Shown one piece after another: positions 2,356-61,463 of a DNA stretch of 64,000 nt; the stretch's first letter is position 1; the number at the start of each line of letters is the position of its first letter. The DNA is taken from assembly GCA_050249535.1 (NCBI GenBank), contig JBFWQI010000001.1, positions 149,541 to 213,540 on the forward strand. The letters are read 5' to 3'. A program made the translations under genes and the position numbers. This stretch comes from Blastocatellales bacterium (GTDB lineage Bacteria > Acidobacteriota > Blastocatellia > RBC074). The notes beneath the pieces are model-generated. The model did no database searches and was not told where the DNA came from. It worked only from the letters and a program-made list of their open reading frames with translations.

Positions 2356-2376
2356 ATGTTTATCTCCTTCTCTTGT

Positions 2377-7164: not shown

Positions 7165-7365
7165 CTTTTCTCCAGCTTGATCAATTGACAGCGAAATATA
7201 GCCGTTCATGAGGAGCATCTCACTGAACTTTATCTGAACGGTAAAAACCTGGGGCAGATTTTGTTAAGGATGTAAAATTTGCAGCGGACGGGAAACGGCG
7301 CCGAATCGCTGTGGTATGATGCGCGGGTCGAGGGGCCCTGAAGAGCCCGGAAATCGCGGTGAATT

Positions 7366-9949
<2,584 letters not shown>

Positions 9950-10075
9950 GCATGGAGTCCCGCATGGAGTCCCGTATGGAGTCCCGACATAAGGCGGGGT
10001 ATTCAGTGATCAAACGAAGCTCTCATTGATAACCAAATAACCCGCCTGAATTCGGGACTCCATACGGGACTCCTT
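9950..10075. repeat. Nested inverted repeat built from 12-bp YATGGAGTCCCG tandem units, immediately after the response-regulator stop codon.
   Basis: The sequence reads gcatggagtcccgcatggagtcccgtatggagtcccg ... cccgcctgaattcgggactccatacgggactcc. The outer stem is about 21 bp and the inner stem aggcggg/cccgcct encloses a loop of about 50 nt. Confidence 0.5.
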
Positions 10076-10433
10076 TTCGAGCTCCTCGATGAATCGATCG
10101 ACGGTCAGTTCGGCCAGGGATTCGTCCGGAGTTGTGAGAAGGCAAAGTGAAGTTCCGTCCCCGGGGCTGACGCAGGATCTGAAGAGTCCCGTTCCATACT
10201 CTCTGATGACGCAGGCAATCCATCCTTTCCGGTCGGCCATAATAATCGTCCTTTCCATTTTTCATCCCTTGATCTGTCTGAGTGAAGTTCGCTTATCTCA
10301 AGACGCCAGAAGGCGACCGAAGTTTCAAAATATTGCCGACGTCGGAGCCGGACTTCTCATTCCAATCTCATCTGTTTTGATTTAGCATGGCTCGGAAAAA
10401 AATCACTCTTGAGTCCATCCCTCGAAAGGAGAA

Positions 10434-12641
<2,208 letters not shown>

Positions 12642-12673
12642 AAATATGGCTCAACTGCTATAATTGCCATTGT

Positions 12674-14860
<2,187 letters not shown>

Positions 14861-14930
14861 AACCGCATATTTTCAGTCCACCCCGGGAAGTAAACTTCAT
14901 TCTCATCCCCATAAGATCAGGAGATAGTCA

Positions 14931-38467: not shown

Positions 38468-39463
38468 TTATCCTCCTGCCGGCCTCTCTACGTGGCCGCC
38501 GAATTTATGGCGCATGGCCGAGAGGACCTTTTCGGCATAGGTATGTTCCTGACGGGATCTGAAACGGGTGAAGAGCGAGGCTGCCAGGACATCGGCCGGC
38601 ACGGCCTCCTCGATCGCCGCCTGGATGGTCCAGCGGCCTTCGCCGGAGTCCTGGACGAAGCCAGAATAGTTCGAGAGGCTCGGATTTTCGAGCAGCGCCA
38701 TGGCCGTCAGGTCGAGCAGCCACGATCCGACGACACTGCCTCGCCGCCACACCTCCGCGATATCGGCCAGGTTCAGTTCGAACCGGTGTTCCTCGGGCAA
38801 CTCGGTCGAGACGGCATTGCGCATGATGTCGAAACCCTCGGCATAGGCCTGCATGAGCCCATATTCGATGCCGTTATGGACCATCTTGACGAAATGGCCT
38901 GAGCCCGAGGGGCCGCAGTAGAGGTATCCGTCCTCGGCAGTTCTGCTGAAATCGGCTGGTGCGGATTCGCGCCCCGGAGTGCGTTCTATTTCGCCGCGTC
39001 CCGGGCTGAGGGTTTTGAAGATCGGCTGGAGGTGGTCGAAGACCTCTTTCTCGCCTCCGATCATCAGACAATAACCGCGTTCGGCGCCCCAGATGCCCCC
39101 GCTCGTGCCGACGTCGACGTAATGGATACCTTTCTCGCTCAATGCTTTCGCGCGCCTGACGTCATCCTTGAAATGAGAGTTCCCGCCGTCGATCACGATA
39201 TCGCCGCCGGACATGAAGACCGACAGCGTATCGACTGTCTGTTCGGTCGCCGCTCCGGCGGGCACCATGACCCAGATCGCCCGGGGCTTCTCCATCTTCT
39301 CGACCAGATCCTCGATCGTTCGCGCGGCGATCGCGCCCTCCGATTCGATCTGTTTGACGTTGTCCTGATTGAGATCGAAGACGAAGCACTGGTGCCCGTC
39401 ACGCATCAGACGGCGCACCATGTTCGCTCCCATGCGCCCCAAACCTATCATTCCTAGCTGCAT
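38468..39463 (-). CDS. gnd: 6-phosphogluconate dehydrogenase (decarboxylating), short NAD(P)-dependent form.
   Basis: The Rossmann motif is [11 protein letters not shown]. Catalytic-domain motifs are present ([14 protein letters not shown]). Confidence 0.85.
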
Positions 39464-39514
39464 CGGTTATCTCCTGAAAAAATTGATTGCGGTTGTTCAA
39501 GGTCGAAATGAGAT

Positions 39515-39961
39515 TCAGTATTTGTCTTCAAGCGATTTTACTTTGTCCAGTCGTTTCTGATGGCGCTCATCGTGTGAGAAGCGTGCCGAGAGAAAGGCCC
39601 TGACCAGTTCGCGAGCGGTCTCGATGCCGATGATCCTGCCGCCGAGTACCAGCACGTTCATATCGTCGTGCTCAACGCCCTGGTGAGCCGAATAAGTGTC
39701 GTGCGTCAGGCCGGCGCGAATGCCGGACATCTTGTTTGCGGCGATCGACGCCCCGACGCCGCTGCCGCATATCAATATTCCTCGCTCAGCCTTGCCCTCG
39801 AGGACCGCCTTGCCGACCGCTTCCGCGTAATCCGGGTAATCGACCGAGGCCGTCCCATGCGTGCCCAGGTCCGACACCTCATGCCCGAGATCGTTCAGAT
39901 ACGGGATAAGCGCCTGTTTAAGATCATATCCAGCATGATCGGCCCCGATCGCCAGTCGCAT
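39515..39961 (-). CDS. rpiB: Ribose-5-phosphate isomerase B.
   Basis: [15 protein letters not shown]...[16 protein letters not shown] is the canonical RpiB/LacAB signature. Confidence 0.85.
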
Positions 39962-40394
39962 GATTGCTCCTCTTGCTTTTAAAAAATTAAAAAATCAGAT
40001 CGAAATCGATCTCACGGCAGGTATGAAGTGTAGTCCTTGTCCGTTCGGGTGACAAGGAATCGATACGATCGCTGCTCCAGATTACGCAGGGTTTTGGCAA
40101 TAATCTGTTGACCGAACGCGAAATTCAGCTGGATGAGGGGATCCGGGTCGTCAATACGATATTAATAATGATGTGGTCGGCGTGCCATTGAATGTCTTGC
40201 AACTATTGTAGTTACAGGCAGTATTCGTTAATATCCTTAACATTACAGGCATTATTTTCCTGGTAAAAGGCACAGGATGGCTGTCATTACCAGCCTATAA
40301 TCAGAGCAACAAACGGTACTTTTAGAAATCAAAATTCTGGTCAGCCCCGTGAGAAGAACCATTTCTCATTGCACATTGATAAGGAAAAATCCGT

Positions 40395-43300
40395 ATGCTC
40401 GCCATGAGTGGAAAAAGGCTGAAAGCCGAATTGTGGCTTCCTGACCGCATCACCTCCATCAGGATAGGTCTTCTTTTCCTTGCAGTCATATCCGTTCTCC
40501 AGTCGGATCGTGCGATTGTGACCGGGGAAGCGACCACTGGCGGCTCCAGCGGGTTGAGTCGCTCCGGCGCTGCGACGATCACCGTTCAAAACGCGAACGA
40601 CAGCGGGCCCGGCTCGCTTCGAGACGCTATCTCAGCCGCATCTCCCGGGGATACCATCAACTTTTCATCAGGAGTGGTAAGCCTCGGCGCGATCAATCTG
40701 ATCAGCGGTGAGTTGCTGATCAACAAGAACCTGAGGATCGAAGGACCCGGGCACGGATTGCTGGTTGTCCAACGAAGCGCTTCCGCTCCTGACTTCAGAA
40801 TATTGAAGATCACCGGCGGAGCGGTTGTCACAATAGCCGGGCTCGATATTGCCAACGGGAGGGCGACTAATACTTCCTTACCTCAAGAGGACGATGGCGG
40901 TGGAATACAGATTATCAGCAGCGACCTGACGCTCAGCGGGTGCGTGATAAATGGAAACCATGCAACAGGAAGCGGGGGAGGCATCGATCTCATCGGCGGA
41001 TTGCTGACCATCTCGGGATGTACAATTAACGACAATACTGCTGATACCGGCGGCGGCATTAATGTCTATTTCGGTGCTGTTCTGGCTCTCGATTCCTGCA
41101 CTATCAATGCCAACAGAGCGCAAAATGCATCCGCGATAGAGGTTGAGAACTCTGATGTCTACCTTACCAATGCGACTATCAGCGGCAACCTGACGCTGAC
41201 CGGCGGCGGCGCAATAAATAATTACGCGGCGACGGGGCAAAACTCAAAATTGGCATTTAACAACTGCACGGTCGTTTTTAATAAAAACTGGGGGGCGCTG
41301 GCCAAAGCTGATCCCGGCGGGCTGGCCGAGATCATTCTGTCCAGTTCGATTTTCGAGGACAATGGACAGAATTTCCAGACGAGCGGCTCCGGCGCATTTC
41401 TTACGAATATCTGCTGCAATTTTGACAGCGACGGTACGAGCGGTTTCGTTAACGGTGCGCAGGGCGGATTTGTGGGCAGCGCCAGTTCGCCCATTTCGGC
41501 TTTACTTGGTTCGCTGGCAGACAATGGGGGACTGACGAAAACGCATGCCCTGCGCTGGGGCAGTCCGGCGCTCGATGTCGGAGCGACCATCGGCGGGCCG
41601 GTTGTCGATCAGCGTGATAATTCGAGATTCGGGCCGGAAGCCGACGGCGACGGCGACGGATTCGGCGCAGCCGACATCGGCGCATTCGAGGTGCAGAAGT
41701 ATATTGTCAATAATGAGATGGATTCAGGGCCCGGATCCCTCCGCCAGGCAATCACTGACAACAACAATTACGGCGGTGGACTGATTGCGTTCGATATATC
41801 CGGAGCCGGGGTTCATTCGATTGCTCCCCTGACGCCGTTACCCGTTGTTACAAGAACCGTGACGATTGACGGTTATTCTCAGCCCGGCGCCATGCCGAAA
41901 ACGAGTTTTCCTTTCACCGGCACCGTCATCAATATTGAATTGAGTGGCGCGAATCTGGCGCAGGGTGAAGGGCTTGAATTGCAGGCAGCATACAGCGTAA
42001 TCAGAGGCCTCGCCATCAATGGGTTCACCAACGGGATCATGCTTCGCGGAAGCAATGCGTCATTCAACAGTATTCTGGGTAATTTCATCGGCACGCATAC
42101 GACGGGCAAAATAGCTGTGCCGAATACATTCTCAGGCGTCAACATTCTGGAAGGTGCCGCAGGTAATCGTGTCGGTACAGAGGCGTTTGCCGACCATAAT
42201 CTGATCAGCGGAAACCTTGGAGCCGGGATAATAGTTCAATCGCCGGGCACGACTTCGAACACTATCGTCAGGAATTCGATCGGTCTGACTGTCGGAGGCG
42301 GCACTACGCTGGGGAACAAGGCCGGGCCGGGCATAAATCCCGGGTTCGGCATACTGATAGGTTTCGGTGCCAATCAGACCACGATCAGGCAGAACTTCAT
42401 TTCCTACAATGAAGCCGCCGGCATCGCTGTATATTCGGACAGTACGGCTCCGCAGCCGAAAGGCAACAAGATCTTCGATAACAACAGGATCCATTCAAAT
42501 GGCGGTTTAGGAATAGATCTCGGATTTGATGGGGTTACTCAGAACGATTCGGACGACTCGGACAGCGGGCCGAACGATCTTCAAAATTTTCCGGTTCTTG
42601 ATCCGATCACTACGCCGGGAACAATCACCGGCACTCTCACCAGCATTCCCGGTAAAACCTATCGAATCGAGCTTTTTTCCAGCTCGAAATGCGACAGTTC
42701 GGGATATGGAGAGGGCGAAGAGCCGGTGTCGGCAATCACTGCCGTTAACACCGACCCACAGGGCAAATTAACCTTCAGTTTCGGATACACACCGCCTTCG
42801 ACAAGGCCATACATCACTGCGACCGCAACGAATAATGATACCGATGAAACATCAGAGTTTTCGGCGTGTGTATATATTTCTCCGACTCTGACGCTGGTCA
42901 ATAATGTAAATAACGACAATGGCGGGACGCTGACGGCAGGTGATTTTCCTGTCGCCATCGACGGAAGCCCGGTTTCATGGGGAGTATCAATACCGGTCAG
43001 TGAGGGATCTCATACTGCCAGTCAAACGACAAAAAGTGGCTACAATGCCTCAACCTGGGGTGGAGACTGCGCAGCCGACGGAACGATCACCTTGGCGCCG
43101 GGCGAGAACAAGACCTGTACGATCACCAACGACGATATCGCGCCGTCACTGACGCTGGTCAAACAGGTGGTAAACAACAACGGCGGCACTGCACTCACGA
43201 CGGATTTCATCCTGAGTGCCGCAGGCCCCACGCCGATCTCAGGCGCCGGCAATGCTGCCAGCGATGCGAGCTTCAAGGCGGGAGTCTACGCATTGTCCGA

Positions 43301-44645
43301 GACCAACCTGCCGGGATATGTGGCCAGCGGCTGGTTATGCACCGGCGGAGTGCTGACAGGCTCAGACCTCACGCTGGGAGTGGGCGAGTCGGCGGTCTGC
43401 GTAATTGCCAACGATGATATTCCTGCCCAACTGACACTGATCAAATCAGTAATTAATGACAATGGCGGGACGCTGACGGCCAATGATTTCCCTGTCTTTA
43501 TCGACGGCAATCCGGTTTCGTGGGGAGTCACATTCAATCTCAATGCAGGAGTATATTCGGCGAGTGAGACCACCAGCTCCGGCTATACTGCTTCGCCCTG
43601 GGGGGGAGACTGCGCTGCTGACGGGACGGTCGTCCTTGCGCCGGGCGACAGCAAGATCTGCAGGATTACCAATGACGATATCCCTCTGACCCCTCCAACA
43701 ATCACCGGGATGGTCGTCTTTGATAATCTGATCATCGCAAGCGGGACAGGTTATGTCGATCCGGTGCAGGTGCTGATCGACGGCGTCGGGTTTTACGACC
43801 CGGCGAAGGTGGAGAGTCAGGGGACCGTGATCAGGCAGGCCGGACTGCTTTCGGACGGACGAACGATCCTTCAGGCAACGCCGGCGGGCAAGCCGGTCAC
43901 CATAGAGATCGTCAACAGCGGCGGTTCGAGAACTGCATATACATACACGCGCAGCCGCACGTTTACCCCATCGGATGGGGTGAGCCGCAAGCCTCGCGTG
44001 CCGCCGATCCAGTTGACCAGTGTAGTCTTCGACGACATAGCCAAAACAGTAGAGATTACAGGCCTGCTGACAGGGCTGGCGCCGAATACCGTTTACACGA
44101 TCTATATTCTCTACACGCCCTCGGGTGACGACGGCTCTGAGACGAAGAGCTGTCAGGATGCGGCAAATTTAGAGAAGACCATCGTTCTCGAGGCATTCAC
44201 AATCAGGACGGACGAACGAGGTAATGCCAAATTCAACCGGAAATATCCGGTCGAAAAAGGGAAGGGCTTCATCAATGCGATCGCGATTCCGGCCACAGGT
44301 AACCAGGTTCCCGTGACCTCGAACTGCCTCGGTGCGGCTCCGCCTCCCGGTCCGGCGATCTTCGAGATCAGGCTTGACCTGCAATCCGGCCAGCAGAGCG
44401 ACGATCGGATGATCATCATCGGGTTCGGATTCAACGAACCCAGGGTCTTCATCAATGATATTCCGTTTGTCGAAAATCCGATGCCTGAAACCCATCAGAA
44501 TATTATCGGGCAGCAACTGGAGCTGAAGGGGAGTCTGGAAGGCGGCCTGAGAATCCGGGACCTGATTAAACCCGGAGCGACGGTGCGAATCAGGGTCACG
44601 AACGGCAACGGAGGCTCGACCCAGTACTTTTTCAGGTATCGATAA
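40395..44645 (+). CDS. Giant secreted or surface protein (1416 aa). It has a Pmp-like parallel beta-helix region, three tandem 90-95-aa beta-sandwich repeats and further C-terminal Ig-like domains.
   Basis: There is an N-terminal signal/anchor. Repeated GGGI...LTLSGCxINxN units resemble polymorphic-membrane-protein and right-handed beta-helix repeats. Three repeats (at about 42880, 43150 and 43430) follow the pattern [21 protein letters not shown]...[36 protein letters not shown]. Their DNA has diverged to about 75% identity. Confidence 0.7.
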
Positions 44646-44674
44646 TCGAACATTATCGACCCCGGAGCGGACGG

Positions 44675-48613
<3,939 letters not shown>

Positions 48614-48646
48614 TTTCATATTCCAGACGGCAATAATCTGATCCGA

Positions 48647-51600
48647 ATGAACCACCTCAACACGCCTCGAGGAGGCGATGAAAATCCGTATGTCGGCCCC
48701 CGGCCTTTCGAGACCGGGCGACGGCTCTTCGGCCGGGACAGGGAGACGGAGGATCTCTACTACCTGCTCAGCGCTGAGCGGATCGTGTTGCTCTATTCGC
48801 CGTCGGGCGCAGGCAAGAGTTCGCTGATTCAGGCCGGCCTTGTGCCGCGCCTGGCGGGCAAGTTCGATGTCTGGGGACCGACGCGCGTCAATCTGCAACC
48901 CTCCGGCGAGTTGCCCGCGGGAGTCAATCGTTATGTCAGGAGCGCCATGCTCGGGCTGGAGCAGGGCATACCCGAATCGCGCCGCCGCCCGGAGTCTGAG
49001 CTGGTCGGGCTGTCGCTGGCGGATTACGTCAGCGGGCGTCCGCGCAGGCGATCCGCGCCGGACAACATTGTGATCATCTTCGATCAGTTCGAGGAGATAC
49101 TGACCGTCGATCCGCTGGCGGTCGAGGCGAAGAAGGAGTTTTTCAATCAGCTCGGCGAGCTTCTGCTCGATCCCCGCATCTGGGCGCTGTTCGCGCTGCG
49201 AGAAGACTATCTGGCTCCGTTCGACACGTACGCTGAGATGATTCCGACGCACCTCAGAAACCGGTTTCGACTGGATCTGCTCGGGCGTGAGTCGGCGCGC
49301 GAGGCGATCGTCAATCCGGCTCGCGACGGCGGCCGCGAATTCGCCGATGAGGCCGTGGAAAAGCTGGTCAGCGATCTGGCGACGGTCAAGGTGCAACAGC
49401 CCGACGGGAAGTTCATAGACCAGCTCGGACAGCACGTCGAACCTCTTCAGCTTCAGGTCGTCTGCCGCCGGCTCTGGGAGAGGATGCCGGATGAAGACAG
49501 GCGCATCGATCTCGAGGATGTCCTCGAACTCGGCAACGTGACCGAGGCGCTGTCAGGTTATTACGCCGGTGAAGTCGGAAAACTGGCCGCGGGCGATGAC
49601 CGGACCGCTCGCGAGATCAGGGAATGGGTCGACGAAAAGCTGATCACTGCGGACGGCATCAGGTCGCAGGTGCTGCGCGGCGCCGGACGGAGCGAGGGGC
49701 TCGACAACGATCTGATCGCGCGGCTGATCAACACCCACCTCATCCGCGCCGAGCAGCGCGTCGGAGCGGTCTGGTACGAACTCGCCCATGACCGCCTGAT
49801 CGCTCCGATCAGAGAGGACAATCGCCGGTGGTTCGATTCGCATCTCCATCAGGTTCAGAAACTCGCCAAGATCTGGGGGGCGCAGGATGAGCCGCCGGGG
49901 CTTCTGCTGGCGGGGAAGGAGCTCGAGGAGGCCCGGCAATGGGCCGCCCGAAACGATCGGATTCTAGATCTCGAGCGCCGGTTCATCGAAAAATCGACCG
50001 TCCGTCAGGAGCAGATAGAACGCGAGCGCCGTCAGGCGATCAGGCAGCGCAGAATGCTCCGAATCGTGAGCGTGCTGACGGTCCTTGCGATCGCGGCTGC
50101 GATTGTGGCGTTCTGGCAGATGCGTGTGGCTGAACAGAAGGAGCGGGATCTGCAGGCAAGTCTCAGGACTTCGCGCGGTCTGCTCTACGTCGCCAGTCAG
50201 TTGCAGGCATGGGAAGCGTACGACGCCAGACAGTATTCCCAGGCCGCCGAGTATCTGGAAAGCTCCATGCCGGACGCGACGGTTGGAGGTCCCGATGTCA
50301 GAAGTTACGACTGGTATCTGCTCTGGCGGTTGATGCACGACGAAAAGCAGACTCTGGCCGGCCATCGTTCCAATGTCACCTCTGTCGTCTTCTTTCCCGA
50401 CGGGCGGACTGCGGCGAGCGGTGATGCCGGCGGCGAACTGAGAGTCTGGGATACGGCTTCCGGAAAAGAAGTGCGGACGATTGCGGATGCCTCCGATTCG
50501 ATCAGCTCGATGGCGCTATCCGGCGATGGAAGAATGCTGGCTGTCGGCGGAACGAAAGCAGTAAGGCTCTTCGAGACAACGAACTGGAAGATGATCAGGG
50601 AAATTGCGGCCATTCAGTCCCCGGCCCTCTCGCTTGCATTCGCGACCGGCGGGAAGATGCTGGCCTCAGGGCATGCCGACGGCACCGTCGTGCTCCGGAA
50701 TCCGGGAGATGGAAGTGAGCTTCAACCGCGCCTTGAAAAACATGACGCCGGCGTGATCGCGGTTTCATTCTCGCCGGACGGCAATTTCCTGGCCTGTGGC
50801 GATCTGGACGGCACAGTAAAGGTGTGGGATGTCGGGAACGGAAATCGACGGCAGGAGGCCTTGCTCCTGCTTCAGACCACGCTCACCTCGCTCGCATTTT
50901 CGCCGGACGGCAGCAAGCTGGCGATCGCATACGGAGCCGGCATCATCAGCCTGCGGAATGCGGCTGACCGCCGCGAAATATGGAAGACAACAAACGGCGG
51001 AGCTATCATCAACACGATACGGTTTTCGCCCGACGGTAAACTGCTCGCCTCCGCGTCGGTGGACGGGAGCATCAGGCTGATCGATGCGGCGACAGGCACT
51101 GAAGCGCGGGCGCTCAAGGGCCATCTCGCCAGCGTCAGATCCTTTGCCTTCTCTCCCGATGGGCGCTCGCTGGTCAGCGGAAGCCACGATCATACCGTCA
51201 GGATCTTCGATCTGACGGCGCTGCCTGAATATCCGAAACTTTCCGGACACGACAAGGACGTCATTGCCGTTCGCTATTCCGCCGACGGTCGCATGATCGC
51301 GAGCGGAAGCGAGGACGGGACGGTCGCCCTGTTCGATGCCGGGAGCCGCAAGTTGCGCTGGCGATCAGAAGACCAGGGATCGCCGGTCAATGCGATAGCG
51401 CTCAGTCCTGACGGGAGCCGTCTGGCAGGCGGCGCGGGCGACGGGAAGCTCCGCTTGTGGGATGCCGCGAACGGATCGACGCTCTGGCCTCAGCCGCAGG
51501 TCCACGGCGAAAGCATCAAGTCCGTCGCTTTTTCAACGGACGGAAAGTCGCTGGCCAGCGGTAGCGATGACGGTTCGATCGTGATTCACGCGGCGTCTGA

Positions 51601-52150
51601 CGGGAAGGTCGAGCGGGAGCTCAAAGGCCACGAAGGCGCGGTCATTGCGGTTGCTTTCTCGCCCGACGGCACTACGCTCGCAAGCGGAGGCGAGGACGGA
51701 TCGATCCGTCTTTGGGACTTCACAAAAGGAAACCTGATCAGAAAGCTCGACGGGCACAAGGTGCCGGTCAGTTCGCTCAGCTTCTCGATGAGCGGAACTT
51801 TACTTGCGAGCGGCAGCGACGATCAGACGGTCAGGCTGTGGGATGTTCGGAGCGGCGTCGCAGTCCGCTCGCTCGAAGGGCATAGTCTGTACGTGCTGGC
51901 AGTCGACTTCACGCCGGACGAGAGGACGCTGGCCAGCGTCAGCGACGGCGCGATATGGCTGTGGGACGTCGGAACCGGCAAACTGTTGCGAAAGATCAAA
52001 GAGGAGTTCGAGTCCGTCACGTCGGTCTCATTCTCGCCCGACGGGCGAACGCTGGCGGGCGGCATCAGCAACGGCAGTATCCATCTCTGGCCCGGCGCCC
52101 GGGACGAGCAGATCACGCGACAGTGCGGCAGGTGCGCATCGAAACGATGA
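48647..52150 (+). CDS. STAND-type P-loop NTPase (nSTAND-like, NPYxG...FFGRD family) followed by a predicted transmembrane helix and about 14 WD40 repeats (1167 aa).
   Basis: The N-terminal motif is NPYVGPRPFETGRRLFGRDRETEDLYYLL. Walker A is SPSGAGKSS at residues 51-59 and Walker B is IVIIFDQFEE at about 141-150. A hydrophobic helix (IVSVLTVLAIAAAIVAFW) lies at about residues 472-490, nt 50054-50117. Repeated WD40 units of the form GHxxxVxSVAFSPDGxxLASGSxDGTVRLWD run from about nt 50320 to 52140. Confidence 0.8.
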   Translation: MNHLNTPRGGDENPYVGPRPFETGRRLFGRDRETEDLYYLLSAERIVLLYSPSGAGKSSLIQAGLVPRLAGKFDVWGPTRVNLQPSGELPAGVNRYVRSAMLGLEQGIPESRRRPESELVGLSLADYVSGRPRRRSAPDNIVIIFDQFEEILTVDPLAVEAKKEFFNQLGELLLDPRIWALFALREDYLAPFDTYAEMIPTHLRNRFRLDLLGRESAREAIVNPARDGGREFADEAVEKLVSDLATVKVQQPDGKFIDQLGQHVEPLQLQVVCRRLWERMPDEDRRIDLEDVLELGNVTEALSGYYAGEVGKLAAGDDRTAREIREWVDEKLITADGIRSQVLRGAGRSEGLDNDLIARLINTHLIRAEQRVGAVWYELAHDRLIAPIREDNRRWFDSHLHQVQKLAKIWGAQDEPPGLLLAGKELEEARQWAARNDRILDLERRFIEKSTVRQEQIERERRQAIRQRRMLRIVSVLTVLAIAAAIVAFWQMRVAEQKERDLQASLRTSRGLLYVASQLQAWEAYDARQYSQAAEYLESSMPDATVGGPDVRSYDWYLLWRLMHDEKQTLAGHRSNVTSVVFFPDGRTAASGDAGGELRVWDTASGKEVRTIADASDSISSMALSGDGRMLAVGGTKAVRLFETTNWKMIREIAAIQSPALSLAFATGGKMLASGHADGTVVLRNPGDGSELQPRLEKHDAGVIAVSFSPDGNFLACGDLDGTVKVWDVGNGNRRQEALLLLQTTLTSLAFSPDGSKLAIAYGAGIISLRNAADRREIWKTTNGGAIINTIRFSPDGKLLASASVDGSIRLIDAATGTEARALKGHLASVRSFAFSPDGRSLVSGSHDHTVRIFDLTALPEYPKLSGHDKDVIAVRYSADGRMIASGSEDGTVALFDAGSRKLRWRSEDQGSPVNAIALSPDGSRLAGGAGDGKLRLWDAANGSTLWPQPQVHGESIKSVAFSTDGKSLASGSDDGSIVIHAASDGKVERELKGHEGAVIAVAFSPDGTTLASGGEDGSIRLWDFTKGNLIRKLDGHKVPVSSLSFSMSGTLLASGSDDQTVRLWDVRSGVAVRSLEGHSLYVLAVDFTPDERTLASVSDGAIWLWDVGTGKLLRKIKEEFESVTSVSFSPDGRTLAGGISNGSIHLWPGARDEQITRQCGRCASKR

Positions 52151-52173
52151 TCGGAATACCTGGAGAATAGAAG

Positions 52174-54843
52174 ATGGCGGATCAGTCGAAATTTCTGCAT
52201 TTCAACGGCATCAATGGAGCGACCGGCGATTACGGCATTCCACCGATGACCGGCGAGGAACTGGCCGGCTTCATCAAAGGTGAGTCGGCTCCCGAGAACC
52301 TTGCCGAGCTCAAGTTTCGCCGGCAGCAGGCCTCGCAGAGCCATTACGGCGTCAAGGAAGGCGTCGATCCGAAGAAACTCGACGAAGCCGGGTGGGGAGT
52401 GATCTTCGCGCACGATGCCGCGCCCGGGATCAGGGAGGCGCTCAAGCCTCTGCTCGACCTTCGCCAGGAGCAGGCCGGAACGCGGTTTCGCATTTACGAG
52501 GGCGGAAACGGGTATCGGGTCGGGAAGGACACCAAGAGTTCATTTCTTGCCAGGCACGGCGCCGGGCCCGGCCCTGCCGATCCGGACAAGGTGCCTTATT
52601 ACCTTCTGATCGTCGGCGGTCCTGATGTCATCCCCTATCGTTTTCAGTCGCAACTGGACGTCCAGTACGCCGTCGGCCGCATTCATTTCGAGACTCTCGA
52701 GGATTACGCCGTTTATGCTCAGAGCGTGGTCGCGGCCGAAAACGGCGGGATAAAGCTGGCGCGAAGGCTGAGCTTTTTCGGCGTGACGAATCCGGATGAT
52801 CCGGCCACCGGAGCTTCCGAACAGTCTCTGGTCAGCCCGTTGTATGCATATTTCAAGGACCGTCCCGGATGGCAGGTCGAAGCGATTCTCAAGGAGCAGG
52901 CCGGCAAGTCGAAGCTGGCTGAGTTGCTGGGAGGAGGCGCCACTCCGGCGCTGCTCTTCACTGCCAGCCACGGCATGGAGTTCCCTCTCGGGCATGCCAT
53001 GCAGATTCCGCACCAGGGGGCACTGCTTTGCAGCGACTGGCCGGGCCCGAAGAATTTTCACGGAGCGATCCCTGAAGACTTCTACTTCGCCGGTGACCAT
53101 CTGGCGAGTGACGCGAGACTGGCGGGACTGATCAGCTTCCATTTCGCCTGTTATGGCGGAGGCACTCCTGAACTGGACGAATTCGCCCAGCAGGCATTCA
53201 AGGGGCGCCAGGCCATCGCGCCGAAGGCTTTCCTGTCTGGTCTGCCCACACGGATGCTGAGCCACCCCAAAGGCGGGGCGCTGGCCGCGATCGGTCATGT
53301 CGACAGGGCATGGTCGACATCATTCGCATGGTCTGGGGCGGGCGCCCAGACGACGGTCTTCGAGAGCACTATCCAGCGCCTGATGGATGGCCATCCGGTC
53401 GGCTCGGCGCTCGAATATTTCAACGAAAGATATGCCGAGTTATCGACCGTTCTCAGCGATGAACTGGAAGAGATCCAGTATGGAAAGATCGTCGAACCGT
53501 ACGAACTGGCAGGCATGTGGACGGCCAACAACGATGCGCGCGGTTACATGATCCTTGGAGACCCCGCAACACGATTGCCGCTTGCGGCCGACGGGGAAGA
53601 ATCTCGTGAACGGCAGGCGATCGAGATCGTTCCATATACCGCGGGCAACGCGACGGCTCCGCCGCCGGTTGCTTCCGCGCCGGCTGATAGACCGCCGGCC
53701 GAACCCGGCCCCGCGAGCTTCAGCGTTCCCACAACGGCCGGGGACGATGTTCTCTTCAGCGCTTTTCACCCGCGGGCGCTCGATGTCGGAGAGTGGCAGA
53801 AACTGCTGATATACGCTCATCTGCAGGAAGCCCTCGATGCGATCAAGACCGACTCAGGGCAGGTGCTGGGATTGAAGTCGCCCGACTATCGACAGTCTGA
53901 GGCCAAAGCGACCGCCAAGATCGCCCATGGGACCGAAATCACACTCGTCCCGCAGGCGGATGGACTGGAATTCAAGCCTCAAAGCGCCACGCTGACGTGG
54001 TCAGGCGCATGGCAGCGTGCGGATTTTGAAATGGCCGCGACCGACAAGCGTGCCGGCCATGTCGTGACGGGAACGGTCGCATGCTATGTCGGCCCGTTGC
54101 TGATCGCCCAGATCAGGTTGCCGGTGGTAGTCAAGCGCCCCGGGGCTGCAATCGAACCGGAGGTCGACGGGCAGGCGGTCGAATCGGCCAAAATGTATCA
54201 GGCTGTCTTCGCCTCCTATTCACACGCCGACACGCAGGTGGTCGAGGCGGTCGAAGCCGCCTACAAAGCCCTCGGAATGGATTACCTGCGCGATGTGATG
54301 ACTCTCAAGAGCGGGCAGAAATGGTCCGATCAGCTGCTCAAGATGATCGACGATGCAGACATCTTCCAGCTCTTCTGGTCGGACAAGTCCAGCGCGTCAC
54401 CGTATTGCGAGCAGGAGTGGCAGTACGCGCTGAGCCTGGCAGAGCGCAAGGGGCCGGCCTTCATCCGGCCGGTCTATTGGCAGAAGCCGATTCCGAAGGT
54501 GCCGGAGGGACTTCGCGCGCTCCACTTCGCGCCGGTCGATTTCAGCCGTTTCATCGCTCCCGCCGCGAAGCCGGAACAGCCTGCGATTACAGCGCCGGTC
54601 GAAATTGACGATGAGCTCAAGAAACTGACCGTTTCGACATACACCGTATCCGATCCGGCGAATCCTCAAAATCCGCGACTCGTAGCGAGGTCGCGCATCA
54701 CGCTCGATGGCGATGTCGAGAACTTTGTGCTGGAGAATCTGACTGCTGACGATGAGAAATACCTTGAGCTTCACCATCGGATGTCGGGAGAGGCCGCGTC
54801 TGCGCGTCTGACATATATTGAAAAGCTCGCGAAGAATCGTTAG
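52174..54843 (+). CDS. Fusion protein (889 aa): an N-terminal clan-CD caspase/gingipain-like cysteine-peptidase-like domain, a proline-rich linker, a beta-rich middle domain and a C-terminal TIR domain.
   Basis: Candidate catalytic His266 in LLFTASHGMEF and Cys326 in ISFHFACYGGG show the clan-CD HG...AC spacing. The TIR signature runs from about nt 54190 to 54540: YQAVFASYSHADTQVVEAVEAAYKALGMDYLRDVMTLKSGQKWSDQLLKMIDDADIFQLFWSDKSSASPYCEQEWQYAL. It includes the conserved Glu of TIR NADases in the CEQE motif. Confidence 0.7.
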   Translation: MADQSKFLHFNGINGATGDYGIPPMTGEELAGFIKGESAPENLAELKFRRQQASQSHYGVKEGVDPKKLDEAGWGVIFAHDAAPGIREALKPLLDLRQEQAGTRFRIYEGGNGYRVGKDTKSSFLARHGAGPGPADPDKVPYYLLIVGGPDVIPYRFQSQLDVQYAVGRIHFETLEDYAVYAQSVVAAENGGIKLARRLSFFGVTNPDDPATGASEQSLVSPLYAYFKDRPGWQVEAILKEQAGKSKLAELLGGGATPALLFTASHGMEFPLGHAMQIPHQGALLCSDWPGPKNFHGAIPEDFYFAGDHLASDARLAGLISFHFACYGGGTPELDEFAQQAFKGRQAIAPKAFLSGLPTRMLSHPKGGALAAIGHVDRAWSTSFAWSGAGAQTTVFESTIQRLMDGHPVGSALEYFNERYAELSTVLSDELEEIQYGKIVEPYELAGMWTANNDARGYMILGDPATRLPLAADGEESRERQAIEIVPYTAGNATAPPPVASAPADRPPAEPGPASFSVPTTAGDDVLFSAFHPRALDVGEWQKLLIYAHLQEALDAIKTDSGQVLGLKSPDYRQSEAKATAKIAHGTEITLVPQADGLEFKPQSATLTWSGAWQRADFEMAATDKRAGHVVTGTVACYVGPLLIAQIRLPVVVKRPGAAIEPEVDGQAVESAKMYQAVFASYSHADTQVVEAVEAAYKALGMDYLRDVMTLKSGQKWSDQLLKMIDDADIFQLFWSDKSSASPYCEQEWQYALSLAERKGPAFIRPVYWQKPIPKVPEGLRALHFAPVDFSRFIAPAAKPEQPAITAPVEIDDELKKLTVSTYTVSDPANPQNPRLVARSRITLDGDVENFVLENLTADDEKYLELHHRMSGEAASARLTYIEKLAKNR

Positions 54844-54873
54844 CCGGATCAGTAATTCTGAAGGGATGATTAG

Positions 54874-56965
<2,092 letters not shown>

Positions 56966-56979
<14 letters not shown>

Positions 56980-59014
56980 CACAACTTCCGAAGCCTCGAT
57001 GGCCGGTCTGAATCCGTATATCGGTCCGAAGCCCTTCGAAACGGGTCGCCGTATTTTCGGGCGCGATCGTGAGACAGAAGACCTCTACTACCTGCTGAGT
57101 TCCGAGCGGATAGTGCTGCTGCACTCTCCCTCCGGGGCAGGTAAGAGTTCGCTGCTTCAGGCCGGACTCATCCCCCGACTGGCCGGGAGATTCGATGTCT
57201 GGGGGCCGACGCGCGTCAATCTCCGCCCGCCGCCTGATCTCCCCGCCGGCGTCAACCGATATATCCGCAGCGCCATTCTGGGATTCGAGGAGGGGATACC
57301 TCAAAGCAGGCGTCGAAGCGAAGACCAGCTCAATCAGATGACGCTGGCCGAATATGTCAATAACCGGCCGAGGAGGCGATCGGCTCCTGAAAACATCGTA
57401 CTGATCCTGGACCAGTTCGAGGAGATCCTCACCTCCGGTCCGCTGGAGATTGCAGCGAAGCGCGAATTCTTCTCGCAGATCGGCACGCTGCTGCTCAATC
57501 CCAGGATCTGGGCCATCTTCTCGCTTCGCGAAGATTATCTCGCCCCGCTAGATCCATATTCCGGCTATGTCCCAACGCACTTCAAGAACCGGTTTCGCCT
57601 GGACCTGCTGACCCGTGAAGCGGCACTCGAGGCGATCGCCGGCCCCGCTTTGCAGGGCGGCCGCGAATTCACTCCTGAAGCTGTCGGAAAAGTGATCAAC
57701 GATCTCTCGACTGTCAAAGTGCAGCAGCCTGACGGATCGTTCATCGATCAGCCTGGCGAATATGTCGAGCCGTTGCATCTGCAGGTTGTCTGTCGCCGGC
57801 TCTGGAATCAGATGCCGGGTGACGACCTCCGGATCGATCTCGAGGATGTGGTCAATCTCGGCGATGTGTCGGAGGCGCTGTCCGGATACTATTCGTCCGA
57901 AGTCCGCGAAATAGCCGGCGGCGATGATACCCTAGAGCGAGAAATCCGGGAGTGGGTCGGAAACAGGCTGATTCGCGCCGGCGGAATACGCGGCCAGGTA
58001 TTGAAAGGGGCAGGCAAGAGTGAAGGACTGGACAACGACCTTATCGCTCAACTCGTCGATGCTCACCTTGTCAGGGGTGAAGTGCGCTCCGGTGCCGCCT
58101 GGTATGAGCTGGCTCATGATCGTCTGATCGAACCTGTCAGATCCGACAATAATAAATGGTTCGATGACCACCTCCACAAATTTCAGAAGGTTGCGCTGAT
58201 CTGGAATGCCAACGGCAACCCTGACAGCCTGCTCCTGCTCGGAGCGGATTTGAACGAGGCGAACGAGTGGAAGCAGTCGAATGCAGACAGGCTGACCGAA
58301 GTCGAGAATAAATTTCTTGAATCCTCGAACGCAAAACAGTCGGCAATCGATCAGAGGCGCAGCCTGCGAAAAATGAAGGTCGCCGGATGGGTCCTGGCCG
58401 CCGTGGTGCTCATTCTTTCAATCCTGGGTATTAATCTCTGGCTGGTTTATAAGCAGGTGGTGGCTGCCTGGTCCGAAGCGAAAATTCAAAGCGAACTCGC
58501 CAGTCAGCAGAAAATAATCGCTGAATCCAACATGAGGCTGGCGCAGGCTGAAGAGAAGAAGGCCAGGGACCTCAGCGAAGCTGCTCGCCAGCTCGCAGCG
58601 CGCGAACTTGCGCTCAAGCTGCAGAGCCTCGCCCGGCAGAAAAAACTCGACGAGGTGAGCGAAGTCATCGAGTCCATCAAGATAATCGCAGACAATGAAT
58701 TCAGATTCTCGGTCTCTGTCGCCCCGGCCGACGCCGAAGGGACAGGATTCGATACACTCTGGTGGATCGAATTACACCCGAAAAAGGAGTCGCTCGAAGG
58801 GAAGGCTGAAAAGATCGCGAGGATTTATTACATCCTCAATCACGAATCCTTTTACCAAAACCTGCGCGTCGGGCTGCCACAGAACAATTTCTTGTACAAG
58901 TATCGCGGATGGGGCTGCCTCGAAGAGGTGATGGCGATCGTCGAGTACAAGGATCCGAAGACTGCACCGTCAATCTCGTTCTTCGATCAATGCGCTGAAT
59001 GGAAGGAAAAATAG
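56966..59014 (+). CDS. Second STAND-type NTPase, paralogous to the 48647-52150 gene. It has a transmembrane helix, a coiled coil and an unknown C-terminal domain of about 110 aa in place of the WD40 repeats.
   Basis: MAGLNPYIGPKPFETGRRIFGRDRETEDLYYLLSSERIVLLHSPSGAGKSSL is about 80% identical to the first NTPase over roughly 400 aa, with Walker B ENIVLILDQFEE. A transmembrane helix (VAGWVLAAVVLILSILGINLWLV) lies at nt 58378-58452. A coiled coil of about 70 aa (SELASQQKIIAESNMRLAQAEEKKARDL...) follows. The start is ambiguous: 56966 overlaps the upstream gene by 14 nt, 56999 is the MAGLNPY start, and the ORF-track start is 56936. Confidence 0.75.
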
Positions 59015-59028
59015 AATGGGAGGCAAAG

Positions 59029-61463
<2,435 letters not shown>

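What the first reader, a model, noticed from the sequence alone, without database searches (positions are those of the whole stretch)
48647..52150. STAND NTPase with a predicted transmembrane helix between the NTPase module and a 14-blade WD40 array
The NPYxGxxPFETGRRLFGRDRE ... SPSGAGKSS ... IIFDQFEE signature is the NTPase family widely fused to WD40 and TPR arrays in multicellular bacteria. Here a strongly hydrophobic 20-residue helix at nt 50054-50117 separates the NTPase from about 600 aa of WD40 repeats. That could place the sensor array on the opposite side of the membrane, or it could be an amphipathic oligomerisation helix. Either way the topology is unusual for cytosolic Avs-type sensors.
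Basis: partly seen in the sequence, partly recalled or inferred. Interest (0 to 1): 0.6.

Follow-up and report, generated by a model that had tools for sequence, protein, structure and literature searches.

The report
Membrane-spanning STAND receptor with outside WD40
This gene most likely encodes a receptor with an ATPase switch inside the cell, one membrane helix and a large WD40 sensor outside; the same layout recurs across a very large family that usually sits next to a SIR2 (NAD-degrading-type) gene, which suggests microbes can trigger NLR-like suicide or defence modules from outside the cytoplasm.

Summary
ORF 48647-52150 (1167 aa) has three parts:
- an nSTAND1 NTPase, residues 14-386;
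- one uniformly hydrophobic 22-residue helix, residues 470-491;
- 14 WD40 blades, about residues 565-1150.

The helix is the family norm, not a quirk of this gene. About 95% of 248 close relatives have a single hydrophobic segment at the same place, whatever follows it (WD40, TPR, FGE, GH19, pYEATS, CHAT). So do 61 of 78 relatives at 22-55% identity from many bacterial phyla and archaea.

Four results point to NTPase inside, WD40 outside:
- Positive charges favour the N-terminal flank in 267 of 299 members.
- The uncharged stretch has a median of 22 residues and is not amphipathic.
- 91 of the 120 most similar WD40 arrays follow a signal peptide or a membrane helix.
- In Bacteroidota the architecture is split: SIR2, then nSTAND1 with the helix, then signal-peptide WD40 or LRR proteins.

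The gene sits in a four-gene cassette with a C25-like peptidase-TIR protein, a CHAT-SIR2 protein and a second nSTAND1 gene with the helix. A SIR2 ORF abuts the nSTAND1 gene in 50 of 75 loci.

I read it as a transmembrane NLR-like sensor driving cytoplasmic protease and NADase effectors. Topology and function are inferred, not shown.

The parts
48647..52150 (+). Whole gene: nSTAND1 NTPase, transmembrane helix, 14-blade WD40 array (1167 aa).
   Evidence: ORF list. The identical protein is called on public contig JBFXDQ010000002.1 of GCA_050180995.1.
48686..49804 (+). nSTAND1 NTPase module (residues 14-386). Walker A SPSGAGKSS is at nt 48797-48823 and Walker B IIFDQFEE at nt 49073-49096.
49805..50011 (+). 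Conserved helical extension of the NTPase module (residues 387-455; invariant or near-invariant N392, W395, L400, W410, L419-L420, W432, E443).
   Evidence: Alignments A1 and A2. AF2 helices 382-399, 402-412, 424-435 and the start of the long helix at 441.
50012..50053 (+). Arg-rich cytoplasmic juxtamembrane stretch (residues 456-469, EQIERERRQAIRQR).
   Evidence: Six K/R in the 15 residues before the helix against three after it. The same bias holds in 267 of 299 family members.
50054..50119 (+). Predicted transmembrane helix (residues 470-491, MLRIVSVLTVLAIAAAIVAFWQ), oriented N-terminus in, C-terminus out.
   Evidence: Kyte-Doolittle 19-residue mean 2.5. Hessa-scale sum -0.5. Hydrophobic moment 0.09 at mean hydrophobicity 0.86. 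It lies inside one continuous AF2 helix, 441-524/529, with pLDDT 81-89. Its position is conserved in relatives.
50120..50338 (+). Helical stalk or linker between the membrane helix and the first WD40 blade (residues 492-564).
   Evidence: AF2 helices continue to residue 524, then 530-539 and 555-564, at low confidence. The region is not conserved in sequence.
50339..52096 (+). 14 WD40 blades, enough for two 7-bladed propellers (that split is my inference; residues ~565-1150). Predicted to lie outside the cytoplasm.
   Evidence: Pfam WD40, 11 significant repeats, and many propeller families. 14 repeat ends at ~42-residue spacing. Only 22-30% identical to the nearest full-length relative, while the NTPase part of the same alignment is far more conserved (55% over residues 13-604). 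91 of the 120 most similar arrays follow a signal peptide or a membrane helix.
52097..52150 (+). Short C-terminal tail with a CxxC motif (C1160, C1163), then the stop codon.
   Evidence: Direct reading of the translation. Significance unknown.
52174..54843 (+). Neighbour 1: C25-like caspase-fold peptidase (His in SHG, Cys in ACYGGG) fused to a TIR domain (residues 678-791). It has no signal peptide. One sub-threshold hydrophobic window (1.82 at residue 635) was not pursued.
   Evidence: Pfam TIR_2 E 4.8e-17 and Peptidase_C25 E 1.2e-6. The C25-like module recurs beside relatives with E 1e-143 to 1e-175. Hydrophobicity scan.
54874..56979 (+). Neighbour 2: CHAT caspase-like peptidase fused to a SIR2_2 domain with degenerate catalytic motifs. 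Predicted cytoplasmic.
   Evidence: Pfam CHAT E 3.5e-26 and SIR2_2 E 2.7e-14. The motif comparison with 60 partner SIR2 proteins shows F552 in place of the His of the 'HG' motif, and GTDL in place of GAGA.
56966..59014 (+). Neighbour 3: second nSTAND1 paralogue with the same membrane helix, then a coiled coil and a pYEATS-like end. The longest ORF starts at 56936; the public gene call starts at 56966.
   Evidence: Pfam nSTAND1 E 2.9e-35. Translation. Kyte-Doolittle 2.69 at residue 465 of the 671-aa form. BLASTP E 4e-6 to the pYEATS region of P0050.

Best explanation
The gene encodes a single-pass (type II; N-terminus in, C-terminus out) inner-membrane receptor of the nSTAND1 family.

Predicted layout:
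- Cytoplasm: the AAA+/STAND NTPase with its winged-helix region (residues 13 to ~455).
- Membrane: an Arg-rich stretch and a 22-residue helix (470-491) anchor the protein.
- Periplasm: a helical stalk carries two WD40 propellers (14 blades).

The helix is the defining architecture of a very large clade whose members swap the outside domain (WD40, TPR, FGE/C-type-lectin-like, GH19, pYEATS, LRR) while keeping the NTPase constant.

Inferred mechanism:
1. The variable outside domain binds an extracytoplasmic ligand. This could be a phage or competitor component, or an envelope-damage product.
2. Binding clusters or re-orients the receptors, so the cytoplasmic NTPase modules oligomerise in an NTP-dependent way.
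3. The oligomer switches on the cytoplasmic partners encoded in the cassette: the caspase-fold proteases (CHAT, C25-like) and the NAD-degrading TIR. In most relatives the partner is a SIR2 with intact motifs, encoded immediately upstream.
4. The outcome is NAD+ depletion, proteolysis and growth arrest or death.

Shown here: the domains, the helix and its conservation, the charge bias, the gene neighbourhoods and the split variants. Inferred: the actual topology, the ligand, oligomerisation, effector activation and the biological role.
For: Helix properties:
- Kyte-Doolittle 2.5 and Hessa sum -0.5; it is the only such segment in the protein.
- Not amphipathic: hydrophobic moment 0.09.
- AF2 places it in one uninterrupted helix, 441-529, that starts at the end of the NTPase fold; pLDDT 81-89.

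Conservation:
- 110 of the 120 best relatives have a hydrophobic segment at the same place, regardless of C-terminal domain.
- A search with residues 1-458 only, so without the helix, returned 128 new representatives. About 121 of them carry one hydrophobic segment right after the matched region.
- 61 of 78 loci at 22-55% identity carry it too. They come from Acidobacteriota, Chloroflexota, Bacteroidota, Planctomycetota, Proteobacteria, Verrucomicrobia, Methanosarcina and Nitrososphaeraceae.
- The uncharged stretch has a median of 22 residues, sd 3.3.
- Some members have several hydrophobic segments after the NTPase: P0011, P0085, P0108, P0147, L056, L070, L076.

Orientation:
- K/R on the N-terminal flank exceed the C-terminal flank in 267 of 299 members, are equal in 25 and lower in 7.
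- Of the 120 proteins with the most similar WD40 arrays, 64 start with a signal-peptide-like sequence and 27 have an internal membrane helix before the array (kinase-, sigma70- or TIR-linked). The same signal-peptide heuristic flags 5 of 248 nSTAND1 N-termini.
- Split versions exist. On Haliscomenobacter hydrossis pHALHY02 the order is SIR2, then nSTAND1 with the helix (550 aa), then two WD40 proteins that each start with a classical signal peptide. L057 has a signal-peptide WD40 protein. L058 has a signal-peptide LRR protein, and L053 an LRR protein whose N-terminus is only weakly signal-like.

Conflict-system context:
- The cassette holds a C25-like peptidase-TIR protein, a CHAT-SIR2 protein and a second nSTAND1 gene.
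- A SIR2 ORF ends within 200 nt of the nSTAND1 start in 50 of 75 loci.
- CHAT-SIR2 lies directly upstream in L003-L018 and L027, and a C25-like gene is adjacent in eight loci.
- The NTPase part is far more conserved than the sensor. Identity is 55% over residues 13-604, with most differences after ~470, against 22-30% in the propellers.
Against: - No topology predictor (DeepTMHMM, Phobius) and no experiment was available. Every orientation argument is indirect.
- In a single sequence the hydrophobic peak is only about 1% significant against composition shuffles.
- Classical STAND control relies on direct contact between sensor and NTPase, which a membrane between them precludes.
- A few relatives place CHAT or pYEATS after the helix. 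These domains are usually considered cytoplasmic.
- A TM-less subgroup with TPR fused directly to the NTPase exists (L022-L025, L034). The NTPase therefore does not need a membrane.
- No adaptor (EAD) domain was found to link receptor and effectors.
- No PADLOC defence model matches the system.
- The block is flanked by ordinary chromosomal genes.
- The SIR2 domain of this cassette lacks the catalytic His.
Confidence: 0.65

Rival explanations
1. The helix does cross the membrane and the WD40 array is outside. However, the system is not anti-phage or anti-invader immunity. It is an envelope-stress, kin or cell-contact recognition, or developmental cell-death signalling module.
For: - No PADLOC defence model matches it.
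- The block sits among housekeeping and outer-membrane genes, not in an obvious mobile island.
- The architecture 'cytoplasmic enzyme, membrane helix, outside WD40' is shared with Ser/Thr kinases and sigma-70-family factors, which are signalling proteins.
- The literature links nSTAND-type conflict systems with bacteria of multicellular habit (PMC7159879, PMC8195603).
Against: - The partner domains (TIR, SIR2, caspase-fold proteases) are the standard suicide or abortive-infection effectors. This rests on established knowledge of Thoeris, DSR and Avs5.
- The rapidly diverging sensor on a constant NTPase and the tandem sensor paralogues behind one effector gene (L006) are typical of immune receptors.
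- Relatives occur on plasmids.
Confidence: 0.2
2. The hydrophobic helix does not span the membrane. It is a buried oligomerisation element or a peripheral, in-plane anchor, and the WD40 array stays in the cytoplasm as in Apaf-1 or Avs-type sensors.
For: - STAND proteins are classically cytosolic, with the sensor folding back on the NTPase.
- TM-less family members exist.
- Composition shuffles reach the same hydropathy in about 1% of trials.
- CHAT and pYEATS domains follow the helix in some relatives.
Against: - The helix is uniformly hydrophobic: moment 0.09-0.11 at mean hydrophobicity 0.80-0.86.
- Its length is tightly distributed around 22 residues.
- Its sequence is unconserved while its position is conserved.
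- There is a strong positive-inside bias, 267 of 299.
- Multi-TM variants exist.
- Split variants encode the WD40 or LRR part with its own signal peptide.
- Most of the closest WD40 arrays are signal-peptide or TM-linked.
Confidence: 0.08
3. The membrane helix is itself the effector. On NTPase-driven oligomerisation the helices bundle into a pore that depolarises the cell, and the WD40 array is merely tethered.
For: Membrane-disrupting TM effectors are common in abortive-infection systems (established knowledge: CBASS, some Avs and bNACHT). Oligomerisation would bring 6-8 or more helices together.
Against: - A single apolar helix without conserved polar or small residues is a poor pore former.
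- Dedicated enzymatic effectors are conserved next to the gene.
- The helix sits between the NTPase and the sensor, not at the effector (N-terminal) position.
Confidence: 0.05

Closest known systems
nSTAND1 conflict-system NTPases (Pfam PF20703; named by Kaur, Iyer, Burroughs & Aravind, eLife 2021, PMC8195603)
   Same: - The NTPase family is the same: 134.8 bits against a cut-off of 27.1.
- The logic is the same: a constant NTPase with variable C-terminal repeats or FGE domains.
- The association with TIR, caspase and SIR2-type effector domains is the same.
   Different: - Published descriptions couple nSTAND1 to effectors through N-terminal EAD or Death-like domains, or through fused N-terminal effectors. 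Here the protein starts directly with the NTPase.
- The main texts I could search do not mention a membrane helix after the NTPase, or a dedicated upstream SIR2 gene.
- I could not read the Pfam or InterPro entry text or the papers' figures.
Avs / bNACHT antiviral STAND (bacterial NLR-like) sensors, including Avs5 (SIR2-STAND)
   Same: - STAND NTPase with a C-terminal repeat sensor and a death effector such as SIR2.
   Different: - Avs proteins are soluble single polypeptides with the effector fused at the N-terminus and a cytosolic TPR-like sensor that binds phage proteins inside the cell.
- Here there is no N-terminal effector, the effectors are separate genes, a membrane helix separates NTPase and sensor, and the sensor is predicted to lie outside.
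- No PADLOC Avs model hit.
Apaf-1 / CED-4 apoptosome
   Same: - NTPase followed by two WD40 propellers.
- It works with a caspase-fold protease.
- Foldseek finds CED-4 and Apaf-1 among the matches.
   Different: - Apaf-1 has an NB-ARC NTPase and a CARD adaptor, is cytosolic and senses cytochrome c in the cytosol.
- This protein is nSTAND1 (NB-ARC is not among the 25 of 67 Pfam hits shown), has no CARD or EAD, and has a membrane helix before the propellers.
Bacterial transmembrane signalling proteins with outside repeat domains (Hanks-type Ser/Thr kinases such as PknB/PknD; sigma-70-family factors with a membrane helix and WD40)
   Same: - The topology plan is the same: cytoplasmic enzyme or regulator, one helix, extracytoplasmic propeller or repeats.
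- Such proteins are among the closest WD40 relatives of this array: P0250, P0261, P0278, P0341 (kinase) and P0260, P0294, P0336, P0344 (sigma-70).
   Different: The cytoplasmic module is a STAND NTPase switch instead of a kinase or sigma factor. The output is probably effector activation, not phosphorylation or transcription.
Toll-like receptors (functional analogy only)
   Same: Outside repeat sensor (WD40 here; LRR in the split relatives L053 and L058), a single membrane helix, and a cytoplasmic module that works with TIR or NADase signalling.
   Different: There is no homology of the cytoplasmic module. In TLRs the TIR is fused to the receptor; here TIR and SIR2 are on separate proteins and an NTPase is interposed.

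Membership tests
nSTAND1 (Pfam PF20703) | Match to the family HMM above the curated gathering score. | tested here: met
   134.8 bits against a cut-off of 27.1, residues 14-386. The second paralogue scores 123.1 bits.
nSTAND1 (Pfam PF20703) | Intact Walker A (GxxGxGKS) and Walker B (hhhhDQFEE) motifs. | tested here: met
   SPSGAGKSS at 51-59 and IIFDQFEE at 143-150. G56, K57, S59, D146, Q147, F148, E149 and E150 are invariant in 74 sequences.
STAND NTPases (Leipe et al. 2004 sense) | AAA+-type P-loop core followed by helical and winged-helix domains, structurally nearest to the ORC/Cdc6 and NLR NTPases. | tested here: met
STAND NTPases (Leipe et al. 2004 sense) | C-terminal superstructure-forming repeats acting as sensor or scaffold. 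| tested here: met
   14 WD40 repeats. Relatives carry TPR, WD40 and FGE domains.
Avs (antiviral STAND) systems | Effector domain fused at the N-terminus of the same polypeptide. | tested here: not met
   The NTPase motif starts at residue 13, and nothing lies in front of it.
Avs (antiviral STAND) systems | Match to the Avs family models used for defence-system annotation. | tested here: not met
   PADLOC gives only a WD40-driven HEAT-ARM hit and a weak P-loop hit to mad8. No Avs model hit.
Avs (antiviral STAND) systems | Protection against phage through recognition of a phage protein. | not testable with these tools
   This needs phage challenge and binding assays.
Single-pass type II (N-in/C-out) membrane protein | One hydrophobic segment long enough to span the bilayer, and no others. 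| tested here: met
   Residues 470-491, Kyte-Doolittle 2.5, Hessa sum -0.5, and the only segment above threshold. The family median uncharged stretch is 22 residues.
Single-pass type II (N-in/C-out) membrane protein | Positive-inside charge bias consistent with a cytoplasmic N-terminus. | tested here: met
   Query: 6 K/R before the helix against 3 after. Family: N-flank higher in 267, equal in 25, lower in 7.
Single-pass type II (N-in/C-out) membrane protein | Experimentally demonstrated membrane integration and outside location of the C-terminal domain. | not testable with these tools
   This needs PhoA/LacZ/GFP fusions, fractionation or protease accessibility. Dedicated predictors (DeepTMHMM, Phobius) were not available.
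WD40 beta-propeller | Repeated ~42-residue WD units, about seven per propeller. | tested here: met
   Pfam WD40 E 2.4e-116 with 11 significant repeats, plus multiple propeller families. 14 periodic repeat ends. The AF2 blades are only partly confident because the repeat alignment is poor.
SIR2-nSTAND1 two-gene unit (defined here from neighbourhoods) | A SIR2-domain gene immediately upstream of, and co-directional with, the nSTAND1 gene. | tested here: inconclusive
   Met for the second paralogue: CHAT-SIR2 at 54874-56979 is followed by nSTAND1 at 56936/56966. Not met for the gene in question, whose upstream neighbour is an outer-membrane barrel gene; it shares the cassette two genes away. In relatives the adjacency holds in 50 of 75 loci.

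The most novel reading that the evidence does not exclude
nSTAND1 proteins with the post-NTPase helix form a very large, cross-phylum and cross-domain class of transmembrane NLR-like receptors. The NTPase-only search found 29,637 cluster representatives at E <= 1e-3.

On this reading:
- They sense ligands outside the cytoplasm with exchangeable WD40, TPR, LRR, FGE or lectin ectodomains.
- They signal through one helix to an NTPase switch.
- The switch activates a dedicated SIR2 NADase encoded just upstream. In the subclade of this window, the partners are instead a CHAT protease docked through a dead SIR2 domain, plus a C25-like protease and TIR.

This would be a prokaryotic outside-in innate-immune or cell-death pathway that combines the logic of Toll-like receptors with that of NLRs. 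It is absent from current defence-system catalogues.
Probability: 0.4. Interest if true: 0.85.

Novelty: new variant of a known kind. Interest (0 to 1): 0.62.

Why it matters
Known prokaryotic STAND/NLR-like immune sensors (Avs, bNACHT, Dsr1-type) detect invader proteins inside the cytoplasm. A large family whose sensor lies outside the cytoplasm would change that picture.

- Microbes could arm NAD-depleting or proteolytic suicide modules before, or independently of, cytoplasmic entry. The trigger could be phage adsorption or injection machinery in the periplasm, competitor toxins, cell-wall damage or neighbouring cells.
- It poses a mechanistic question: how does a STAND NTPase get switched through a single membrane helix, without sensor-NTPase contact?
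- The split variants make the idea directly testable. They encode the helix-bearing NTPase and secreted WD40 or LRR proteins as separate genes. One example is in a cultured organism, on a plasmid: Haliscomenobacter hydrossis DSM 1100 pHALHY02.
- The conserved SIR2-nSTAND1 pairing is a candidate system missing from PADLOC v2.

Tried and rejected
- **Amphipathic oligomerisation helix.** Rejected: hydrophobic moment 0.09.
- **Helix as a chance hydrophobic run.** A single-sequence shuffle gives only about 1%, so I relied on positional conservation. I also searched with the NTPase alone, to avoid biasing hits towards helix-containing proteins.
- **Literature.** I searched for a prior description of the helix or the SIR2 partner using nSTAND1, STAND plus transmembrane, SIR2 plus STAND, and prokaryotic WD40 surveys. 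nSTAND1 is named in PMC8195603, but no searchable main text mentions the helix or the partner. The supplement of PMC13581612 is not held.
- **PADLOC and NCBIfam.** No system-level or equivalog hit.
- **PDB by sequence.** Nothing for the NTPase or the C25-TIR protein; only weak SIR2 hits for CHAT-SIR2.
- **Promoter and terminator scan of 39400-59300.** Counts equal the shuffled expectation, so the operon limits are unresolved.
- **Full-length AF2.** The WD40 blades are partly low-confidence because the repeat alignment is poor. I did not use that model for fold search.
- **Upstream SpaA_2 and outer-membrane barrel genes as part of the system.** Rejected provisionally, because they are absent next to relatives.
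- **Nonomuraea hit H1.** The record has no annotation and the ORFs were unclear, so I did not pursue it.

Full report
**1. The observation**

The window carries an ORF at 48647-52150 on the + strand, 1167 aa. The identical protein is called on contig JBFXDQ010000002.1 of the metagenome-assembled genome GCA_050180995.1. Its best relatives come from Bryobacterales and Terriglobia, which are Acidobacteriota.

- NPYVGPRPFETGRRLFGRDRE at residues 13-33
- SPSGAGKSS (Walker A) at 51-59
- IIFDQFEE (Walker B) at 143-150

Pfam assigns residues 14-386 to nSTAND1 (PF20703), with 134.8 bits against a cut-off of 27.1. It assigns the C-terminal ~600 residues to WD40 and propeller families. Eleven repeats score individually. 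The repeat ends recur every ~42 residues 14 times, from 598 to 1145.

The hydrophobic helix is residues 470-491, MLRIVSVLTVLAIAAAIVAFWQ, at nt 50054-50119. Its Kyte-Doolittle 19-residue mean is 2.5, and no other window in the protein exceeds 1.6. The sum on the Hessa biological scale is -0.5, against +7.5 or more elsewhere.

A caution applies. The protein is rich in Ala, Leu and Val. In 5000 composition shuffles, 54 reached 2.5. The single sequence is therefore suggestive, not decisive.

**2. The helix is a family hallmark**

- *Close relatives.* Among the 120 best database relatives of residues 1-578 (51-68% identical), 110 have a segment at the same place that also passes the Hessa criterion. 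This holds whatever follows: WD40, TPR, FGE-sulfatase, CHAT, GH19, pYEATS, DUF4337, DUF3455 or nothing recognisable.
- *Unbiased search.* To avoid circularity I searched 1.84 billion cluster representatives with residues 1-458 only. That gave 29,637 hits at E <= 1e-3 and 3,429 at E <= 1e-30. Of the 128 new best representatives, about 121 carry exactly one hydrophobic segment directly after the matched region.
- *Distant relatives.* A scan of one genome per species returned 80 loci, of which 78 gave an analysable nSTAND1 ORF, at 22-55% identity. They come from Acidobacteriota, Chloroflexota, Bacteroidota, Ignavibacteria, anammox Planctomycetota, Proteobacteria, Verrucomicrobia, Methanosarcina and Nitrososphaeraceae. 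61 of the 78 ORFs have the segment.
- *Pooled statistics over 299 members.* The uncharged stretch has a median of 22 residues (sd 3.3). Mean Eisenberg hydrophobicity is 0.80 with a moment of 0.11.
- *Sequence against property.* The amino-acid sequence of the segment is not conserved, whereas the NTPase before it has dozens of invariant positions.
- *Structure prediction.* AF2 models the NTPase at pLDDT ~95. It puts residues 441-529 into one uninterrupted helix that begins at the end of the NTPase fold.
- *Variants.* Some members have several hydrophobic segments after the NTPase. A minority lack the helix altogether and fuse TPR directly to the NTPase (L022-L025, L034).

**3. Orientation**

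The NTPase has no signal peptide and needs nucleotide, so it should be cytoplasmic. With one span, the WD40 array must then be outside. Three independent results agree.

- *Charge bias.* In the 15 residues before the helix, K/R exceed those in the 15 after it in 267 of 299 members. They are equal in 25 and lower in 7. The means are 5.8 against 3.2; the query has 6 against 3.
- *Relatives of the WD40 array.* Of the 120 proteins with the most similar arrays, 64 begin with a signal-peptide-like sequence. Another 27 have an internal membrane helix between an N-terminal kinase, sigma-70 or TIR module and the array. The same signal-peptide heuristic flags only 5 of 248 nSTAND1 N-termini.
- *Split architecture.*
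  - On plasmid pHALHY02 of Haliscomenobacter hydrossis DSM 1100, a 'SIR2 family protein' gene comes first. It is followed by a 550-aa nSTAND1 protein that ends about 100 residues after its membrane helix.
  - Two WD40 proteins follow, each starting with a classical signal peptide: MKKIGFIFLFLWGGDLAQLSAQ and MKKGLLIALIFCLQALPVFAQ.
  - The same arrangement occurs with a signal-peptide WD40 protein in L057 and a signal-peptide LRR protein in L058.
  - In L053 the downstream LRR protein has an N-terminus that is only weakly signal-like.
  - When the sensor is a separate gene it is exported. This is what an outside location of the fused sensor predicts.

**4. Genomic context**

The gene heads a co-directional block:
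- nSTAND1, helix and WD40 array: 48647-52150
- a C25-like caspase-fold peptidase fused to TIR: 52174-54843
- CHAT fused to SIR2_2: 54874-56979
- a second nSTAND1 paralogue with the same helix, a coiled coil and a pYEATS-like end: 56936/56966-59014

*Conservation of the partners.* In relatives, CHAT-SIR2 lies immediately upstream of, and overlaps, the nSTAND1 gene. One locus has three tandem nSTAND1 genes with the helix and TPR behind a single CHAT-SIR2 gene. A highly conserved C25-like gene is adjacent in eight loci. Across the wider set, an ORF matching the window's SIR2 domain ends within 200 nt of the nSTAND1 start in 50 of 75 loci, archaeal ones included. The deep core is therefore SIR2 followed by nSTAND1 with a variable C-terminus. 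The CHAT fusion and the C25-like gene mark the subclade to which the window belongs.

*The SIR2 motifs.* Standalone partner SIR2 proteins keep the GAGA and HLHG motifs. All CHAT-fused ones, including the window's (G390-T-D-L and Q550-I-F552-G), have lost them. From established knowledge, the His of the 'HG' motif is the catalytic base of sirtuins. The SIR2 domain here is therefore probably a non-catalytic docking module. That leaves CHAT, the C25-like peptidase (His in SHG and Cys in ACYGGG are present) and TIR as the likely active effectors.

*Other context.* The NTPase part is far more conserved than the sensor. The main alignment with the nearest full-length representative is 55% identical over residues 13-604, with most differences after ~470. 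The propeller segments are only 22-30% identical. The rest of the window is ordinary chromosome: EF-G, RelA/SpoT, ABC-F, G6PD and a P-type ATPase.

**5. Mechanism**

My best reading is a transmembrane STAND receptor.
1. A ligand binds the periplasmic propellers.
2. Binding clusters or re-orients the receptors.
3. The cytoplasmic NTPase modules oligomerise with NTP.
4. The oligomer activates the cytoplasmic protease and NADase partners.
5. The result is NAD+ depletion, proteolysis and growth arrest or death.

Only the anatomy, its conservation and the neighbourhoods are shown. Topology, ligand, oligomerisation, partner activation and biological role are inferred. Several points count against it:
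- Sensor-NTPase contact, the usual STAND autoinhibition, is impossible across a membrane.
- CHAT or pYEATS lie after the helix in some relatives.
- No adaptor domain was detected.
- No PADLOC model matches the system.

**6. Comparison with known systems**

- *nSTAND1.* By family, this is an nSTAND1 member. The clade was named in PMC8195603, where it is described with N-terminal EADs or effectors and FGE or repeat C-termini. The searchable main texts mention neither a post-NTPase membrane helix nor an upstream SIR2 partner. I could not inspect figures, supplements or the InterPro text, so prior notice cannot be excluded.
- *Avs.* It is not an Avs: there is no N-terminal effector, no Avs model hit and the predicted location is not cytosolic.
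- *Apaf-1.* It resembles Apaf-1 in having an NTPase, two propellers and a caspase partner. It differs in NTPase clade, adaptor and topology.
- *Topological plan.* The plan matches Ser/Thr kinases and sigma-70-family factors that carry a membrane helix followed by WD40 repeats. These are among its closest WD40 relatives.
- *Toll-like receptors.* By logic it recalls them: outside repeats, one helix, and TIR or NADase signalling inside.

**7. Verdict**

The 'amphipathic helix' alternative is rejected.

The helix is typical of the family, not peculiar to this gene. That makes the gene itself ordinary within its clade. The clade, however, is interesting: a very large, apparently undescribed class of membrane-spanning NLR-like receptors with a conserved SIR2 partner.

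I rate it a new variant of a known kind, with interest 0.62. My confidence in the topology is about 0.8, and about 0.65 in the topology together with the conflict-system function.

Noticed in passing
window 54874-56979 (+): The SIR2_2 domain of the CHAT-SIR2 protein has degenerate motifs: G390-T-D-L instead of GAGA, and Q550-I-F552-G instead of H-L-H-G. All CHAT-fused partners share this loss, whereas standalone SIR2 partners of relatives keep both motifs. The domain is probably a catalytically dead docking module.
   Followed up: partly
window 56936/56966-59014 (+): A second nSTAND1 paralogue has the same post-NTPase membrane helix (KVAGWVLAAVVLILSILGINLWLVY), a ~100-residue coiled coil and a small C-terminal domain. 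That domain is weakly similar to prokaryotic YEATS (BLASTP E 4e-6 to P0050). The ORF overlaps the end of the CHAT-SIR2 gene.
   Followed up: partly
window 52174-54843 (+); also L003-L005, L007, L011, L013, L027: The ~480-residue 'C25-like' caspase-fold module barely matches Pfam Peptidase_C25 (E 1e-6). Yet it is extremely conserved next to nSTAND1 genes from Acidobacteriota to Chloroflexota and Rhodoferax (phmmer E 1e-143 to 1e-175). Only the window copy carries a C-terminal TIR. It looks like an undescribed partner family.
   Followed up: partly
L087 (Haliscomenobacter hydrossis pHALHY02, record 1-7007); L057, L058, L053: These loci carry split versions of the system. SIR2 comes first, then a short nSTAND1 protein with the helix, then large WD40 or LRR proteins. 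The downstream proteins have classical signal peptides in L087, L057 and L058; in L053 the N-terminus is only weakly signal-like. L087 is on a plasmid of a cultured strain, which makes it a convenient experimental entry point.
   Followed up: yes
L006 (OZ375331.1, 12.2 Mb genome), locus 5888-16320: One CHAT-SIR2 gene is followed by three tandem nSTAND1 genes with the helix and TPR. This suggests that several sensors share one effector.
   Followed up: no
L022-L025, L034: A subgroup of SIR2-linked nSTAND1 proteins lacks the membrane helix and fuses TPR repeats directly to the NTPase. The family therefore has both soluble and membrane-spanning branches.
   Followed up: partly
L073, L077, L085 (Saprospiraceae): A second P-loop NTPase-like motif (GxxGVGKTSL...) appears about 400 residues into the same ORF. 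This suggests tandem nSTAND1 modules in one protein.
   Followed up: no
window 52124-52135 (residues 1160-1163): The target protein ends with a CxxC motif (RQCGRCASKR). These are two of only four cysteines in 1167 residues. Significance unknown.
   Followed up: no
window 40395-48613 (+): Two large envelope genes lie on the same strand, 29-33 nt apart and 33 nt before the nSTAND1 gene. One is a SpaA_2-repeat protein of 1416 aa. The other is a CarboxypepD_reg plus outer-membrane beta-barrel protein of 1312 aa. They are not found next to relatives, so they are probably unrelated, but co-transcription cannot be excluded.
   Followed up: partly
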